A stretch of DNA of 61,836 nt, filler included, from Squatina squatina (lineage: Eukaryota): the NCBI GenBank assembly GCA_031763465.1. It is 3 parts of 3 records of this genome, joined end to end, with 100 filler letters (N's around TTAATTAATTAA, not from the genome) between each part and the next. Parts side by side here need not be neighbours in the genome. Positions count along the whole stretch, not along the records: positions 1 to 25,488 come from JARFOE010000051.1; 2 more parts are not named here. One strand, written 5' to 3'. The notes beneath the pieces are model-generated. The model was not told the DNA's origin. It made no database searches and saw only the letters and a list, made by a program, of their open reading frames with translations. Shown piece after piece: positions 4,887 to 41,997 of this stretch (the first letter of the stretch is position 1; every line of letters starts with the position of its first letter). Position numbers and translations under genes: made by a program.

Positions 4887-5782
4887 TCATAATTTAATAT
4901 ATGTAAAAATTAGAGGAAAGGGAAATTTCACCACATTCTTCAACAGCTCCCTGAACTTAATCTGGGTCACGGCATAAATACAAGTGTTCGTGCAGCAACT
5001 CAGCAGCTGGAGCATGAATCCTATTTCTTGTAGAAAAGAAGGTAGAAAGAGAGTATCATCACCTAAGTGATACATCCGGTTCCATATAGAATACACCGTG
5101 AATACCACCCATAACAGAACGAAATTCCCCGAGATAACAAGCAGTAGAATGATGGATTTCCTTCGCCTCTCAATCTCTGCGTCACTGGGATTCTCTTCAC
5201 TGCTGTGATCCCGGAGTCTCCTGCGGGCTCTGCTGGCCAATAAAATGTGTCTGATAGTTAAAACATTCAGCAGCAGAATCAGAGCAAATGGGATGCACGG
5301 CGTTAGAATAAAATGAAAAAACTCGATTGTTGCCCACAAATTTGAAACCATTACATGAACACTCACATAGCAGAACCAGGGAGTATTACTCAAACTGTAC
5401 CAAGGTACATACATGAAGTACCAGAATATATTCTTTAAACAGCTAAGCACAGAAACTGTTCCGAGAACCACAGCTGCAGTTTTCTCAGTGCAATATTTAT
5501 TTTTCAGCTTCTGACAACAAATTGCCACAAATCGATCCAAGGTGAAAGTGACAGTGAACCAGACAGAACAGTCTGTGGCTGTATAAAGCAGGACAGCATG
5601 GATATTACACACTGGGATGAACTGCACAAATAGCAGTTCATGCGCGATTGGAATCTGTCTAAGTATCAGGTCGCTGATAACAACCAGTAGATCTGCTGCT
5701 GCCATGGCCACCAGGTAGCGAGCGACACATTTGGAGAGACCGCACTTTCCCCGAGACAGGATCACAATCGTCACTAAGTTAA
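4887..5782 (-). CDS. GPR139/GPR142-like orphan class A GPCR, exon 2 (end of TM1 to C-terminus)
   Basis: Acceptor cccacAG at 5784-5783. Phase-1 join gives GIPVNLVTIVIL. Motifs: MAAADLL (TM2), LDRFVAICC (DRY-like), FVLLW (TM6), SCCTNTCIY (NPxxY variant). TGA stop at 4889-4887. Spliced CDS is 981 nt = 326 aa. Confidence 0.92.
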
Positions 5783-6371
5783 CTGTGGGGAAGGCAAATA
5801 AACAGCAAAATTAACACAACAGGATGGAAGTGAAATCAGGATGATGAAGTTGTGGTGAACTTTCAACACATATTACTTCTTGCCTTGATGGAATTTAATA
5901 ATGTTCCTAAGAAAGGGCTTTTTGCTGCAGACAGGATTTGCAATGAAAATTGTATGATTCACTAATGTGTAATGAATAAGAACTGAACACAGCAGTGGGA
6001 TACACGAGTAATGTGCAGTCTAAAATAATCATCATAGGATCAATGCTAAAGTGAGAATATCCCTCATATCCTGCTTTGTTAAGTCAATGTTAAGTACAGG
6101 CAGAACACTGGAATCACCCAGCTCCTCGGATTACATTCCCAGTCTATACTCAATCAGGAATTAGTTTGGGACATCTGGGACGAGTCATAATTTCCAAGAG
6201 GGTTAATCCAGCTTTCACCACCAGCGCTGCCGAATAACAGCAGACAATCAGGAAATACCAGGACGGGAATTATAGGAATGTAGTCTGGGGAGAGTGAGTC
6301 AGTGACACGGCGGAGTGTGTGTGTGTGTTCGGCAAAGTGAGTCATTGACCCTTGAGATAGAATCGAGAAGA

Positions 6372-7272
6372 GCTGGGTGGGATTGTGAGCTATGAGGAGG
6401 ATGCAGAGAGGATCCAGTATGATTTAGACAGGTGGAGTGAGTGGAAAAATGCATGGCAGATGCAGTATAATGTGGATAAATGTGAGCTTATCCACATTGG
6501 TGGCAAAAACAGGAAGGCAAGTTATTGTCTGAATGGCGATTGATTAGGATTGGGAGACGTGCAACGAGACCTGGGTGTCCTCGTACACCAGTCGATGAAA
6601 ATAAGCATTCAGGTGCACCAGGCAATTAAGAAGGCAAATGACATGTTGGCCTTCATAGCGAGAGGATTTCAGTACAGGAGCAGGGATGTCTTACTACAAT
6701 TGTGCAGGGCATTAGTGAGGCTATATCTTGAGTATTGAGCGCAGTTTTGAAATCCTTACCAGAGGAAGCAGGCTCTTGCTATGGAAGCAGGGAAGGTACA
6801 CTAGACTGATTCTTGGGATGCCAGGACTGAGGTATGAATAGAGATTGGGACGATTGGGCTTCTATTCGCCAGAGTTTAGAAGAATGTGAGGGGACCACAT
6901 TGAAATGTATAAAATCCTGACGGGACTGCCCAGACTTGATGCAGCAAGGATGTTTCCGATGGTGTAGAGGTCTGGAACAAGGGGTCCCAGCTAAAGGCTC
7001 AGCCATTTGGGACTGAGATGAGGTGGAATTTCTTGAACTAGAGAGTGCTGAACCTGTGGAATTCTCTACCACGGAAGGCAGTTGAGGACAAATCATTAAA
7101 TACATTCAAGAAGGAGTTCGATACATTTCTTATGGCGAAAGAGATCAAGGGATACGGCGAGAAAGCAGAAACAGGGCACTGAATCTGGATGATCACAAGT
7201 GATGATATTGAATGGCGGAGCAGGCTGGAAGGACCGAATGGCCAACTCCTGCTCCTATTTCATATGTTTCTA
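6372..7272 (+). mobile_element. 5'-truncated CR1-clade LINE in the GPCR intron
   Basis: ORF2 C-terminal peptide QRDLGVLVHQSMK...LVRLYLEY and 3' UTR ending ctcctgctcctatttcatatgtttct. Confidence 0.9.
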
Positions 7273-7911
7273 GCATGAACAAAAAAAAACAGAGGAAAGA
7301 ATGTGCGGGTCTTGTGTGTAACTTGCTCAAATTGGGTTGTGATCCCCACTGTGCTGATTGAAAGACTCCGTGGTTTCGGGCCGCAGAATGGAGGGAATGC
7401 TGGCGGTGAGAAATGGAGAAGTATTCAACATTTTAAAACGGTTAGAAAACAAGGATAAAACAGGACAATAATTCTACTTCCACTAAAATCTTAAATTTCA
7501 TATCCACTGGAAGTAAGACATAATTGTGAAACATTTTGAACGACTTTCCAAACACAGAATCTCCACTTCGCTCCAAATAATCTCGACTTTAAATGTTCTA
7601 ATAATTTGACCAACCTTGTTTTGAATAGGACCTCACCTAACCTGTTGACACTTCCTTCTCTCCACTGATATTTGGTGTATTTATAACTATCGGTGCTGAT
7701 GTATAATGTACAATATGGACCCAGTCCACCTGACACTCCCTGCGTTAATGCATTCATGGAAACCATGCGCAGTGTATAAGTAGTGGCCAATTCGAATCAC
7801 ACGTTTTACAACATTGCTGTAAGTTCATATTCTCTCCAGCTGTGTGACTGTAGAATTCCTTTGAATGTATTTGATGTGAAATCGATTGAATTAGCCCCTT
7901 TTGTGTTGGGT

Positions 7912-8072
7912 AAAGTATCTGAACCCAACTAGATCAACGCTAGCCTAGAGGTCTGTATCTATCGGTGAGACTTATTTAAGTGTCTGAACTCAACTTGATT
8001 GGTGGCAACCCAGAGTTACAGTTCTATTGGTGAGGTTTAATTAAGCTTCTGAACCTCACGAGTTCAGCGCTA
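7912..8072. repeat. 65-bp minisatellite, left half (about 2.5 degenerate units)
   Basis: GGTGAG anchors at 7964 and 8029 (65 apart). Shares gtatctgaacccaactagatca with the 10474-10700 array. Confidence 0.85.
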
Positions 8073-8097
8073 ATACAAAACTAAACACTGTAAATCA

Positions 8098-10473
8098 TAA
8101 ATAAAAACAAAAAGTGCAAGAAATACGCTGCACCTCAGACAGCCACAGTGGCGAGAGAAAAACAGAGTTCGTGTTTCAGGTCTGTGACCATTCACCACAG
8201 CTGGAGAAAGTTAGAGATGTGGAGACAGAGCCAGAGTTAATGTTTCAGACCAGTGACCTTCAATCAGAACTGGAGAGTTTTGAGATTTAAAAGGTTTTGG
8301 AGCAAGTTCAGGGACAGGAAAAAGGGGAGGTGTGAAATTAACAAAAGGGAAGAGCTGTGATGGAGTGGGTCAGGAATGATTAAGAGACAAAAGTGTTGAA
8401 GGTGCAAAGCTCAATGTAATGTTAATGGGCAAATTAGAAACAAAAGACAAGTCTACACAGGGTGCAAATGAAAATGGCAGAATCATCAGCAGCTGTGACG
8501 GGAGAGGGAGACATAAACAAAAAAAAACATAGTCAGGGGTGAAGGTCTAAAATTGTTTAACTCGCTGTTTGGTACAGAAGATTGTAAAGGGCCGAACCAA
8601 AGAAGAGGTGCGGTTATTTGAGCTTATGTTGAGCTTCATTGGTCCAGTGGAAGAGGCTGCAGATGGAGAGATCAGAGTGGGAGTGGAGCGAAGAACTAAA
8701 GTGACAGGTGGCCAGAAGCTCACGGTAGCTCCTATGGACTGCACAGAGGTATTCTGCGAAGCGGTCACCCAATCTGCGTCTGGTCTCCCAGTGTAGAGAA
8801 AAATGCATTGTGATCATCGAATGTAATATTCTAAATTGAAAAACGTACAAGCAAATCGCTCTTTCACCTGGAAGGAGTGTTTGAGGCCCTGGAAGTGATG
8901 AGGTAAAAGGGCAGGTGTTGCATATCCTACGCTTCCAACGGGAACGGCGCCATCGGAAGAGCAGTGAGTGCTGGGATGATGCAGGACTGGACCAGGGTTT
9001 CACGGAGGGAGATGTCCCTTTGGAATGGTGAAAGGGGAGAGGAGTGGAAGATGTGTGTGGTGGTGGGATCACTCCGGATGTGGCAGAAATAACGGAGGAT
9101 AATCCGTTGACCACGGAGGCTTGCTGCCTGAAAGGTGAGGGCAAGGCGAACCCTATCATGGTTGTGGTTAGGAGGGGAAGGGGCGAGAGCAGAATTGTGG
9201 GAACAAGAACAAATGCTCTGGTGGCCATGTCAACCATGGTAGAGGGGAATGCTCGGTTGAGGAAAAAGGAAGACATGTAAGAAGCAATGGTGTGGAATGT
9301 GGTTAGTCATAACAGAAATGACGGAGAGAGAGAAACTGGGAGAATGGAATACTTACAGGAAGTGGGGTGGTAGCAATTGTAGTCCAGGTAGTTTGGGAAT
9401 CACTGGGATTAGGGTGTATGATTGTCGATTGTCTATTCACAGAAATGTAGACAGAGTAGTCGAAGAAGTGAAGGGAAGATTCAGAGATGGACAATGTAAA
9501 CGTGAGGGAAGAGTGGAAATGGGAAGCATTGTGAAAAAGAATTTCGAGTTCGGCACAAGAGCAGTAAACTGCACCAATACAGTCATAAATGTACTTGAAA
9601 AAGAGGTGACGGAGGGGAGCTGAGTCGGACTAGAACACAGAATGTTCCACAGATCCCGTGAAAATGCAGCACAGCTAGGACCGATGCGAGTTCCCAAAGC
9701 AACACCTTTAATTTGAAAGAAGTGATTGTAGTCAAAGGAGAAGTTGTGCAATGTGAGAACATTTTCAGCCAGCTGGAGGAGGCTTGTGGTAGATGGGGAT
9801 TGTTCGGGCCTTTGTTCAATGAAGAAACAGGGCGCCCTCAGGCCATCCAGTCGGGGTGGAGGTGTGGAAGGATTGAACGCACAGAGTGAAAAGGAGAAAG
9901 GTGAGGCCAGAAAATTGTAACTGTTAAAATGGCGGAGCAGCATCAGAAGAGTCGTGGATTTAAGAGGACGAGAATGTACAAGCGGAAAACAAAGAGTCGA
10001 GCTAGGGGTAAGAACAAATGGAAAGAATAAGTGTACGAGAGCAATCCTGTTTGTGGAGTTGAAGGACTGAGGTAGAAGCAGGCTGAGCTTGACGGCTGTG
10101 GAGGGAAGATCTCCAGTGGTGCAGAGGTTTGTGACAGTCTGGAAAATGATAGATTGATGTTCATTAGTGTGGTCAAAGTCCAGGTGGAGAGAGAAGAACG
10201 TGTCCGCAAATTGGCGTTTAGTCTCCATAAGGTAGAGGTCGGTTCGCTGAAACACAACAGCGTGACCCTTGTAATCCAGGTTTAATGACAATCTTGAGGA
10301 CGGATCTGAGAGAATGGAGTGCTGCAAGTTCAGAATGAGGTAGGCTGGAGTGCGTGAGGGGAGTGGAAAAATTGAGCCAGCCAATGTCACGCTGGCAGTT
10401 AGCAATGAAATGATCCAGAGAGGGTAAGAGGCCAGACAAATGGGCGAAGGGAGAGTGAGAATTATGAAAGCGG
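8098..10473 (-). mobile_element. Penelope-like retroelement (RT + GIY-YIG endonuclease), frameshifted
   Basis: PLE RT motif LLQLAENVLTLHNFSF...QIKGVALGTRIGPS, a decayed RYIDD (KYIYD), CNTCP linker cysteines, the LYTGETRRRLGDRFAEYL endonuclease motif, and a PLE-type terminus at 8098-8300. Confidence 0.88.
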
Positions 10474-10700
10474 AATCAGCACGAACCTGGAGTTCTGCAT
10501 CTGTGGATGAGATTGAATTAAGCATCTCACCCCAACTAAATCTGTGCAAACCTGAAGTTCTGGATCTGTCGGTGAGATTTAATTAGGTATCTGAACCCAA
10601 CTAGATCAGCACAAGCCCAGAGATCTGCATCTACTGGTGAGATTTAATAAAGAATCTTAATGCATCCAGATCAGTGCTAACCAAGAGTTCTGTATCTATT
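10474..10700. repeat. 65-bp minisatellite, right half (about 3.5 degenerate units)
   Basis: G[AG]TGAGA anchors at 10506, 10571 and 10636 (period 65). Confidence 0.85.
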
Positions 10701-11242
10701 GTCATTTTGCTACTACAAAGCCATCTCGACTTGCATTGACCTCCACTGACCATCAACAAGAGTCAGTTATATGGAAATAGAGCGGGAGGTGGGACAGAGA
10801 CATCTAAGGTATAACTGATTGCTTGACGGGCACAGGTTGGGGTGGGATTCATTTTTTTTCAAGTATGCACCCTGGATACCCATGGAGACACCTCTCCGAT
10901 ACGATGCAGGTGCTTAGTGCAGACACAGGCTGCCAGCTGCTTTAAAAGAGAATTAGCCTTTAACATTGTCTATGCTGCAAACTAAAAAAAGATCCCGGTC
11001 TCTACCAGCCCCATAACATGGAAAAAAGAACGAAAGATGAGAATTCCTGTCCATTGCACTCAGAAAAGTGAATGGGTGAATGTGTCCCAATTAGAGTGAG
11101 GAACCACAGAACATTGTCAGATCCACAGCCATAGAGAAGCTCTGGGTTCAATTAGTTTCTGGATATTTTGACATCAATGAGAAAACACTGTCACACAGTT
11201 AAACAAGTTAGACCACATGAATAGCCGGATATAATGACTTAC

Positions 11243-11327
11243 CAGGGATCCCGACAGCTGCCAGAATCGGGTAGTATATCTTTTCTACCGCATAAAGAAT
11301 TTTCAGTATCTTAAGCTCAAGATACAT
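11243..11327 (-). CDS. GPR139/GPR142-like orphan GPCR, exon 1 (N-terminus and start of TM1)
   Basis: ATG at 11327-11325 gives MYLELKILKILYAVEKIYYPILAAVGIP plus G, then a GTAAGT donor at 11242. Length 85 nt, phase 1, in frame with exon 2. The start codon is less certain than the donor. Confidence 0.88.
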
Positions 11328-11418: not shown

Positions 11419-11427
11419 TTATTAATA
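11419..11427 (-). promoter_or_regulatory. TATA-like element upstream of GPCR exon 1
   Basis: TATTAATAA(GGG) on the minus strand about 92 nt upstream of the ATG. Position is the only support. Confidence 0.3.
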
Positions 11428-11944
11428 GACGAAGAAAACCTCCAGTGACACAATTCGGGTCCATGGAGAGTGATACGAGTAATGGCCACTGAGCAAACAC
11501 GTTGATTGAATCCATGGAGACTGGTGTGATTTACAGTCACTGAACAGACAAAGTCAGTTGACCTTTTTCAGAGCAACACTCCTTAAACAATTAAAATTAC
11601 TTAAGGAATGGAACATGGATGTACAGTAGTACCTCGCACAATAGGGACGGTATTTTAAGAACGATAGGGAAGGATAAACATTGTCAAACTAAAAGTATGA
11701 ACACACTGATTGTCACTTTGTTTTCTTCAAGCTTGCCATCTCCATCACCACTCTTCTTTTCTCTGTCACTTACAAAGCCATCTCTGACAACTTTGTGATT
11801 CGCTCTTCATCCACATCTCCTACTGCCCTCCGAACCAAGATTGTTCTGTATCCATGCACAGAAAAAATACTTCGGACTTTTTTAAAACTCAAAACTTTGT
11901 CAATTTTCTGGATGCTTCTGCAGCTGTGGATCTGTTCTTCCAAA

Positions 11945-28320: not shown

Positions 28321-28623
<303 letters not shown>

Positions 28624-37902: not shown

Positions 37903-38046
<144 letters not shown>

Positions 38047-40345: not shown

Positions 40346-41226
40346 AGTTAACCAACTAATAATTTAAATTCTCTTCAGTTTCTTTTCCTCCAGATAAAAC
40401 ACAGATGCTGTTGAGGAGGAGGGAGAAAAAGTGGATAAAGCCCTTCCACCTCTGTCACCCCGACCACATGCTCACCCATGCCATCATTTATCCTTTCTTT
40501 CTCACTCAGCAGCCCAGAGAGATTCACGCAGGAGGCAGCAAGAAGATCAAATGAGGATTTGTCACAAGATGCGAGGGTACTCGAGGAGTCAGGAGTGACA
40601 GTGGTTTCTGATAACGGAGAGTAGAGGATCTGCAAATGCCAGTCCTTGGCTCAAGATCCTGGAGTCTCAATTTTCAGGGGTCGCGTTCTAAAAAGGATGC
40701 TCAACAAGCATCACATGAACATGCAAATACTAAGGAACATCTTGCATGATGTGAGGAGGATGGCAGGGATTAGTCACGGTGGAGTTTAATGCCATCCTTT
40801 GCACCAAGCTCTGAAAAAACTTTAGGACGATGCAGTGCTACCGGGAGCAAGTGGAAGAATTGGAATCATCCTCACCTAGCCCCCAAAAGAGATGCCTGCA
40901 GACCAGTCAGTCCCTCCAGTATGGAGGTATAGGACTCGCCTNNNNNNNNNNNNNNNNNNNNNNNNNNNNNNNNNNNNNNNNNNNNNNNNNNNNNNNNNNN
41001 NNNNNNNNNNNNNNNNNNNNNNNNNNNNNNNNNNNNNNNNNGGTGAATAGCATTGATGCATTTAAGGGGAAGCTACATAATTGCACGTGGGAGAAAGGAA
41101 TAGAAGGATATGCTGATAGGGTGAGATGAAGAGGGGTGGGAGGAGGTTCATGTGGACCAGTTCGGCTGAATATCCTGTTTTTTGCTGCACGTTCTATGTA
41201 ATTCTGTTGAGAATTATACAACGTAC

Positions 41227-41997
41227 CTGGAAAATCACAGTGATGAATCCTTCTCTTCTCTAGCTCCGGGTTGTTTCTCCGGTTGAACTTAACCGGTGTG
41301 ATGTTCGGTTGTGTTGCTTGCAAGGTTGCTGGGTGGGCATGGGTGACAGTGGGTGACCCCATCTTGCAGGCAATAGAGGCAGCATACGATGGAGGTGGCG
41401 TCATAGTTTGCAGTAGTTCTGGCTGCCTGTCGGGGCTTCCGGGCTCAGAGTTTGGTGGTGAGGGCGGCAGGTAGGTGGGCTGTTGTGGGAAGAACTGCGT
41501 TGGCACGGCAAATGTGCCTGCTGAGATAGAGTGGAAGTGTTTCACTGCCGTCTGCGGACGCACCGCGGCCAGCGAGTTCATGCCAGTCATTCCTGTCGAT
41601 ACGGAGACATTGGTGAGGTTGCCCATACACGCTGTGTTACCTTGTGTGTGAGGAGTGTTACCAGGCATGCTAATCAAATCTGGGGAACTCAGCAGCTGGT
41701 ACAAGTGACCTTGTTGCGGGGATGGAGGCAGATGCATTTCAGGCGAGGGCAGCTCCTGTTTGATGAACACGGTGTTGACATCTGTTGACTGCGAGGTGTT
41801 GAACACACTGGTGAATTCTGGCAGGGCCTGGGTTGTAATTGTTCTGTTTGCCTGGGTAAAAACGGTAACGTCTTCCGAAGGGGGCTGAGCCATGGATGGT
41901 CTTTGCGGCTTATAAAGGCCAGTTCGCAGGTAAGTGATGTCTGGCAGGATCACATTGATGTTGACGCTGTACGGCGACGTTCTCTCGTCCTGGAAAA
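41227..41997 (-). CDS. KLF5: Krueppel-like factor 5, large coding exon (5' part in gap)
   Basis: FQDERTSPYSVNINVILPDITYLRTGLYKPQRP...TQALPEFTSVF...FIKQELP...PPSPPNSEPGSPDRQ...TPPPSY...NPELEKRRIHHCDFP, with phase-1 donor GTACGT at 41226. The short finger-1 exon is not visible. A KLF5-like paralog is not fully excluded. Confidence 0.92.

What the first reader, a model, noticed from the sequence alone, without database searches (positions are those of the whole stretch)
4887..11327. Intact, compact GPR139/142-like orphan receptor in a repeat-saturated locus
Seen: clean two-exon 326-aa ORF, very short N-terminus, intron within TM1, DRF for DRY, no TM6 proline in FVLLWV, and NTCIY for NPxxY, while every flanking element is decayed. 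Known: mammalian GPR139/GPR142 respond to aromatic amino acids and are related to invertebrate FMRFamide/myosuppressin-type receptors; to my knowledge shark annotations list many GPR139-like paralogs. Inference: member of an expanded, functionally uncharacterised chondrichthyan receptor repertoire, possibly chemosensory or immune. This is the best candidate for an undescribed system here.
Basis: partly seen in the sequence, partly recalled or inferred. Interest (0 to 1): 0.7.

Follow-up and report, generated by a model that had tools for sequence, protein, structure and literature searches.

The report
Large uncharacterised shark receptor gene family
This intact gene is one of roughly 200 related cell-surface receptor genes in this shark-type genome, mislabelled GPR139 by databases, whose outward-facing surfaces differ from copy to copy and which share one upstream control module, so the family is likely an overlooked set of chemical sensors, although where it is expressed is untested.

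Summary
The gene is real: two exons (11327-11243, 5782-4887), 326 codons, purifying selection on its own branch. It is not GPR139 or GPR142: this genome holds both elsewhere, plus a GPR210-like gene, and a clade of this gene with GPR139 is rejected (p-AU 1e-78). It belongs to a chondrichthyan family of 162 located and about 190-230 estimated loci here (70 open, 31 broken, 30 cut of 131 examined). Its closest bony-vertebrate relative is an apparently single-copy gene of amphibians, sturgeon and reedfish. Paralogs keep the G-protein face and diversify the outer half (dN/dS 0.3 versus 0.6; 28 of 28 pairs); the amphibian gene shows the opposite pattern. The charged GPR139 amino-acid contacts E3x32 and R6x51 occur in 0 of 70. 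Copies share a rigid upstream module ending in homeodomain-like, O/E-like and TATA-like sites, a loose match to olfactory promoters. Best reading: a chemosensory repertoire (about 50%); immune, reproductive or endocrine roles remain open because no expression data were found. Ten paper searches found no description of the family. This scan noted the family (82 findings, at least 15 genomes) and its promoter before on other DNA.

The parts
11243..11327 (-). Exon 1: start codon, very short N-terminus and outer part of TM1 (28 codons + 1 nt)
   Evidence: the same short exon with the same donor lies upstream of paralogs
5783..11242 (-). Phase-1 intron of 5,460 nt inside TM1, filled with repeat remnants
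   Evidence: a CAG or TAG acceptor at the same codon in 92 of 109 scorable family loci, and at the matching place in this genome's GPR142 and GPR210-like genes
4887..5782 (-). Exon 2: rest of TM1 to TM7, helix 8 and stop codon
   Evidence: (Pfam 7tm_1, E 2.4e-19)
11419..11427 (-). TATA-like box 92-100 nt upstream of the ATG
   Evidence: read by eye; aligned across 13 upstream regions
11439..11456 (-). Homeodomain-core-like 6-mer, 2 nt spacer, O/E(EBF)-like 10-mer; this copy departs from both consensuses (8 of 10 positions fit the O/E consensus of PMC3247239, counted by eye)
11474..11548 (-). Two copies, 51 nt apart, of the family's 24-nt upstream box (T-rich forkhead/Sox-like start, homeodomain-like end; these labels are recalled); both are degenerate here
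   Evidence: tandem copies at 51-nt spacing also occur at 5 other places

Best explanation
This is an intact class A GPCR gene of a birth-and-death family of about 200 loci in this genome, and the family likely works as a chemosensory repertoire: each member would bind a different external small molecule or peptide at a variable outer pocket and signal through one shared G-protein face in one cell type. Shown: gene structure, family size, DNA-level duplication with frequent gene loss, separation from GPR139/GPR142/GPR210-like, conserved inner half and diversified outer half, loss of the GPR139 amino-acid contacts, shared upstream module. Inferred: that the module is the promoter, that it drives expression in olfactory or other chemosensory cells, that ligands are external, and that the window's subfamily, whose deep pocket is polar and nearly fixed (R70, H90, D99, E182, H185, R264, E281, Q287), binds a polar or peptide-like class of ligand.
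For: Size: 133 matches at E<=1e-5 with only 132 of 744 candidates scored; 162 distinct places over four searches; a TM3 pattern gives 164 hits against 0 control, with recall 60 of 70 open loci; a TM6 pattern gives 163 against 40 control, recall 47 of 70. Turnover: 70 open, 31 disrupted, 30 cut of 131 fetched; non-coding flanks align between the window and three paralogs. Selection: dN/dS 0.28-0.31 inner half, 0.59-0.64 outer half, outer above inner in 28 of 28 disjoint pairs; entropy 1.0 versus 2.13 bits; 62 different 10-site pocket combinations in 70 genes. Control: 18 amphibian orthologues are 98.8% identical at the 27 pocket sites and 85.5% outer versus 75.9% inner, while 16 subfamily paralogs are 67.7%, 57.7% and 77.8%. 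Window branch: 27 synonymous and 18 non-synonymous private changes, ratio 0.21. Upstream box: 67 hits against 1 control; a family exon 1 follows at 21 of the 27 distinct places fetched, and 5 of the other 6 are cut by a contig end. O/E, homeodomain and TATA sites mark mouse OR promoters (PMC3247239). The catshark has only about 32 V2R and a handful of other olfactory receptors (PMC11979771).
Against: No expression evidence at all. Pooled outer-half dN/dS stays below 1 (0.59-0.64; above 1 in 3 of 28 pairs), so relaxed constraint fits as well as diversifying selection; no site model was run. The module is not the mouse Lhx2/Ebf composite: the one composite probe seen has a 1-nt spacer with the Ebf site facing the other way, whereas here the spacer is 2 nt and the C run is usually broken. 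This gene's own sites are degenerate and miss the pattern. EBF and homeodomain factors also act in B cells and elsewhere (recalled). Paralog promoters are alike by descent. The 50 most specific catshark brain-plus-olfactory genes included no GPCR, and catshark OR, TAAR and ORA genes are mostly expressed outside the nose. Pocket positions come from alignment numbering, not from a model of this protein.
Confidence: 0.5

Rival explanations
1. Immune or barrier sensor repertoire: the members detect microbial or damage-derived molecules on leukocytes, mast-like or epithelial cells, as Mrgpr and formyl-peptide receptors do in mammals.
For: The variable outer face, fixed inner face and birth-and-death turnover fit equally well. 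Sharks were reported to lack MAS1-related receptors (PMC8455134), which leaves the niche open. One clade has an octamer-like stretch in the module (label recalled).
Against: No family member is among the marker genes of the bamboo-shark single-cell atlas: 0 rows for 'receptor 139', 'GPR139' or 'capa receptor', and the 4 shark rows with 'G-protein coupled' are other genes (PMC11372145 supplement, cut when stored). This is weak, because sparse one-per-cell expression or multi-mapped reads would hide them.
Confidence: 0.22
2. Reproductive receptors, in sperm or the reproductive tract, that sense pheromones or tract peptides.
For: Inference only: fast-turning GPCR families are often testis-expressed (recalled), and three catshark V2R genes are testis-enriched.
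Against: No data here; the module's resemblance is to neuronal receptor promoters.
Confidence: 0.1
3. Internal peptide or metabolite receptors whose expansion is largely drift in repeat-rich regions; most copies are redundant.
For: The wider clade is activated by peptides with aromatic ends (PMC8557429). The amphibian gene has a fixed pocket. 31 of 101 loci not set aside as cut are broken. The deep pocket is nearly fixed inside the window's subfamily.
Against: Subfamilies are shared by sharks, rays and a chimaera and have distinct pockets. No two of the 70 open copies are closer than 4.8%. The inner half is under clear purifying selection.
Confidence: 0.17
4. The gene is the shark orthologue of GPR139 or GPR142, a Trp/Phe sensor.
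For: Database names (119 of 120 listed hits); best PDB match by sequence and fold is GPR139; shared intron position with GPR142.
Against: GPR139 and GPR142 lie on other scaffolds; about 25% identity; p-AU 1.4e-78; E3x32 and R6x51 absent.
Confidence: 0.01

Closest known systems
GPR139 and GPR142 (class A orphans activated by L-Trp and L-Phe; PDB 7vug, 9m42; PMC7318219)
   Same: Nearest solved relative by sequence (E 9e-9) and fold (rank 1, E 6e-10); no P7.50; H5x43 and W6x48 kept in this gene; TM1 intron at the same place as in this genome's GPR142.
   Different: About 25% identity; separate clade; E3x32, F3x33, R6x51 and N7x38 replaced by L, Y, F, F; has C3.25 and an ECL2 cysteine (68 and 67 of 70) that GPR139/142 lack; P6.50 lost; about 200 copies instead of one.
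GPR210A/B, extra GPR139/142 subtypes of coelacanth, gar and fishes (PMC6504862)
   Same: A GPR210-like clade (coelacanth P0246, silverside P0251, own C57 gene) is the next clade out and shares the intron and the cysteine pair. My matching of P0246 to that name is by taxon only.
   Different: This genome has its own single GPR210-like gene (61% to coelacanth). The paper covers no shark (0 mentions) and reports no expansion.
Unnamed gene of amphibians, sturgeon and reedfish (P0242, P0301, P0318; auto-named GPR139)
   Same: Sister to, or at the base of, the family in both careful trees (94/91 and 94/89); shares the ICL3-TM6 motif and short N-terminus.
   Different: One cluster per species, fixed basic pocket, keeps P6.50. 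Orthology is not proven: family plus GPR210-like is not rejected (p-AU 0.28).
Vertebrate chemoreceptor repertoires (OR, TAAR, V1R/ORA, V2R) and Mrgpr/FPR sensor families
   Same: Large birth-and-death family, short N-terminus, variable outer pocket on a fixed signalling face, shared proximal module with homeodomain-like, O/E-like and TATA-like sites.
   Different: Unrelated lineage (only Pfam 7tm_1); two coding exons; sensory expression and ligands not shown.
Protostome MIP, proctolin, RGWamide, FMRFamide and myosuppressin receptors (PMC8557429)
   Same: Sister group of GPR139/142; invertebrate members are the outgroup hits.
   Different: Those bind endogenous amidated peptides; 26-30% identity.

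Membership tests
Class A (rhodopsin-like) GPCR | 7tm_1 profile above cut-off, seven helices and helix 8 | tested here: met
   70.3 bits against 30.5; model of the 80%-identical P0005 has pLDDT 91.6, 7TM and helix 8
GPR139 / GPR142 orthologue | Groups with them in a tree and is the genome's only candidate | tested here: not met
GPR139 / GPR142 orthologue | Agonist pocket E3x32, F3x33, H5x43, W6x48, R6x51, N7x38 (PMC7318219) | tested here: not met
   2 of 6 in this gene; family counts 0, 9, 36, 68, 0, 6 of 70
GPR139 / GPR142 orthologue | Activation by L-Trp or L-Phe | not testable with these tools
   needs a cell assay
GPR139/142/210 supergroup | Clade against invertebrate peptide receptors; shared TM1 intron | tested here: met
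   100/96 and 100/97; intron matched in GPR142 and GPR210-like, GPR139 acceptor unreadable
GPR210-like orthologue | Inside the coelacanth/teleost/shark GPR210-like clade | tested here: not met
   that clade (100/99) holds another gene of this genome
Co-orthologue of the amphibian/sturgeon/reedfish gene | Exclusive clade and shared synteny | tested here: inconclusive
   best tree supports it (94/89-91), alternative not rejected; synteny not tested
Chemosensory receptor repertoire | Large birth-and-death family | tested here: met
Chemosensory receptor repertoire | Variable ligand side, conserved G-protein side | tested here: met
   control
Chemosensory receptor repertoire | Positive selection at pocket sites | tested here: inconclusive
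   pooled pocket dN/dS 0.57-0.63; no site model run
Chemosensory receptor repertoire | Tandem clustering | tested here: inconclusive
   one adjacent pair on C4, two copies 75 kb apart on C203; none within 100 kb of this gene, but the region is 57% N; most copies on small contigs
Chemosensory receptor repertoire | OR-type promoter (O/E, homeodomain, TATA) | tested here: inconclusive
   sites present by eye at fixed spacing; geometry differs from the mouse composite probe; no matrix score against background
Chemosensory receptor repertoire | Expression in sensory cells; response to external ligands | not testable with these tools
   no RNA holder listed; catshark atlas supplement unreadable

The most novel reading that the evidence does not exclude
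Cartilaginous fishes built their own large olfactory or chemosensory receptor family from the GPR139/GPR210 peptide-receptor lineage, several times larger than their known V2R set and driven by a homeodomain plus EBF-type promoter, so the accepted picture of a tiny shark receptor repertoire is wrong.
Probability: 0.35. Interest if true: 0.9.

Novelty: new variant of a known kind. Interest (0 to 1): 0.66.

Why it matters
Papers describe a 'relative paucity' of GPCRs in cartilaginous fishes (PMC8455134) and an olfactory repertoire of a few dozen genes (PMC11979771). About 200 loci hidden under an automatic GPR139 label contradict the first statement whatever they do. If they are sensory, they would be a further vertebrate chemoreceptor family of independent origin and would bear on how sharks smell with so few known receptors. 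One tissue panel tests this, and the conserved amphibian gene offers a route to the ancestral ligand.

Tried and rejected
Expression: no RNA holder was listed for exon 2, which is no evidence either way. The catshark atlas supplement could not be read. Only 12 of 24 whale-shark supplementary files were searched, with 0 hits. The nurse-shark spleen supplement (one 4,750-character file) had 0 hits. Synteny: 100 kb on each side is 57% N, with no other family copy and no tRNA gene; no neighbour gene was identified. Retroposition was rejected: long open frames suggested intronless copies, but the acceptor is kept at 92 of 109 scorable loci and exon 1 lies upstream across an intron. Allelic inflation looks small among open copies (closest pairs 4.8% and 5.9%); partial loci were not checked. 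A link to zinc-finger arrays, suggested by a fused annotation (P0351), found only 4 motif hits in the fetched loci. The bacterial promoter scan is irrelevant. The upstream module was not scored against a background, so its match to known factor sites rests on inspection. Search of earlier findings by sequence and by place gave nothing. No complex was predicted: no binding claim is made.

Full report
Observation. The window is a pack of three stretches; the gene lies in the first (1-25488, scaffold C51). Exon 1 is 11327..11243 and exon 2 is 5782..4887, with GT and AG ends and a phase-1 intron just before N1.50: 981 nt, 326 codons and a stop. Exon 2 matches only Pfam 7tm_1. A model of the 80%-identical full-length relative P0005 has seven helices and helix 8, with TM1 starting at residue 2; the window protein itself was not folded. 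Its best fold match and the gene's best PDB sequence match are human GPR139, at about 25% identity.

It is not GPR139 or GPR142. A pattern for GPR139 found one place, on C168; a search with that protein found GPR142 on C232; a coelacanth query found a third gene on C57 at 61%, which I call GPR210-like after PMC6504862. Two careful trees (39 and 35 rows, picked from 132 and 143) give GPR139+GPR142 (100/99-100), GPR210-like (100/99), an amphibian-sturgeon-reedfish clade (100/100) and the chondrichthyan family joined to that clade at 94/89-91. Holding the gene with GPR139 is rejected (p-AU 1.4e-78). Family monophyly without the amphibian gene is weak (83/62), and family plus GPR210-like is not rejected (p-AU 0.28). 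A Callorhinchus protein nests inside the family (97/89), so diversification began before chimaeras and elasmobranchs split.

Size and range. The own-genome search gave 133 matches (132 loci) at 45-100% identity with 132 of 744 candidates scored; three more queries raised this to 162 places. Pattern counts: 164 against 0 control with recall 60 of 70 open and 95 of 131 overall; 163 against 40 with recall 47 of 70 and 76 of 131. That implies about 190-230 loci, broken and partial ones included. I fetched 131 of the 162: 70 have a full open exon 2, 31 a stop or frameshift, 30 are cut or partial. An open exon 2 does not prove a working gene. 92 of 109 scorable loci keep the acceptor at the same codon, and non-coding flanks align between the window and L002-L004, so copies arose by DNA duplication. 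In public proteins 2,348 of 6,467 candidates passed E 0.001; the 120 listed are all from sharks, rays or skates, 119 named GPR139. Of 20 representatives looked up, the 12 family-level ones that carry a name or lie above 35% identity are elasmobranch or unnamed, and the rest are amphibian, coelacanth, teleost or invertebrate outgroups. The sister gene appears as one cluster per species in 21 amphibians, sturgeon and reedfish; single copy is inferred from that listing.

Anatomy and selection. Across the 70 open copies the inner face is nearly fixed and the outer half varies: entropy 1.0 versus 2.13 bits (159 and 124 columns, p 7e-23), 2.49 at 27 pocket positions. In 28 disjoint close pairs dN/dS is 0.28-0.31 inside and 0.59-0.64 outside, outside higher in 28 of 28. 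Because outer halves are often looser in GPCRs, I used 18 amphibian orthologues as control: they show the reverse, 75.9% inner, 85.5% outer, 98.8% pocket identity, against 77.8%, 57.7% and 67.7% in 16 paralogs of the window's subfamily. Inside that subfamily the deep pocket is nearly fixed and polar, and variation sits in the loops and helix tops, so pockets differ mainly between subfamilies. Of six GPR139 agonist contacts listed in PMC7318219 the gene keeps two, and the two charged ones occur in 0 of 70. The family has C3.25 and an ECL2 cysteine, absent from GPR139/142, and has lost P6.50 (2 of 70). The window's own branch is under purifying selection (ratio 0.21), while its nearest paralog, a 178-codon fragment, gives dS 0.068 and dN/dS 0.63. 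Pooled values never exceed 1, so positive selection is not shown.

Upstream module. Upstream of exon 1, members of distant subfamilies share an 80-nt block: a 24-nt box, about 17 nt, a homeodomain-core-like 6-mer, 2 nt, an O/E-like 10-mer, about 10 nt, a TATA-like box. All 16 invariant columns of a 13-sequence alignment fall in this block; 10 of the 13 were picked by the box pattern, so only the lower part and three sequences are independent of it. The box pattern has 67 genome hits against 1 control; 30 were fetched (27 distinct places), and a family exon 1 follows at 21, with 5 of the other 6 cut by contig ends. In the window the block is at 11419-11548 with the box doubled and degenerate. 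Mouse OR promoters are enriched in O/E, homeodomain and TATA sites, but the mouse composite probe has other spacing and orientation. The block points to shared control in one cell type; which one is not shown.

Mechanism and rivals. Best reading (0.5): a repertoire of chemosensors, with ligand choice at the outer pocket and common coupling through the conserved ICL1, ICL2 and ICL3-TM6 face. Immune or barrier sensing (0.22), drift-inflated endocrine receptors (0.17) and reproductive sensing (0.1) remain. No family member is a marker in the stored part of a bamboo-shark immune-cell atlas, a weak point against a broad leukocyte role.

Literature. Ten searches found no paper describing the expansion; 'GPR139-like' had 0 hits. 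The library lacks most subscription journals. Seen: passages of PMC6504862, PMC7318219, PMC11979771 (supplement unreadable; preprint searched, 0 hits), PMC8455134 (12 of 24 supplements), PMC8557429, PMC3247239, PMC5608512 (passages, supplementary files 2 and 7); reference-list passage only of PMC7270403; supplement searches only of PMC11372145 and PMC10529500. Unseen supplements of the catshark atlas could settle expression. Earlier notes of this scan report the same family in at least 15 genomes and the same promoter; I read them after my own results and they are not independent support.

Verdict. Real, intact gene; member of a large chondrichthyan receptor family that I found undescribed in print; function inferred, expression untested. 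Interest 0.66; new variant of a known kind.

Noticed in passing
L031:800-900 (G000:C168): This genome's GPR139 has an in-frame stop in ICL1, beside assembly gaps and a repeated segment; an assembly error or a real loss.
   Followed up: no
G000:C57:2408231 and C57:3507305: The GPR210-like gene and one family copy lie on one scaffold 1.1 Mb apart, a possible trace of the family's origin.
   Followed up: no
window 9440-10582 and 8617-9306, minus strand: Stop-free frames of 381 and 230 codons in the intron with no Pfam match; they resemble Penelope-type reverse transcriptase remnants (recalled). 6350-7270 resembles a CR1-type LINE end (recalled).
   Followed up: partly
window 28321-28620 (+), 37906-38046 (-), 41042-41995 (-): Second stretch of the pack: C2H2 zinc-finger exons and a long proline-rich exon that look like KLF12 and KLF5 (names recalled). 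Not linked to the receptor gene.
   Followed up: partly
G000:C36, C427739, C545134, C648066, C1061615: The upstream box occurs as 2-3 tandem copies at 51-nt spacing in front of some family genes, as it does twice in the window.
   Followed up: partly
P0242, P0282-P0301, P0318: An unnamed GPR139-related receptor conserved in frogs, salamanders, a caecilian, sturgeon and reedfish, with a nearly invariant basic pocket; no amniote or teleost hit among 80 listed.
   Followed up: partly
L095 (G000:C4:6327945-6330261): Two family exon-2 copies about 550 nt apart with a gap between; the only adjacent pair seen.
   Followed up: no
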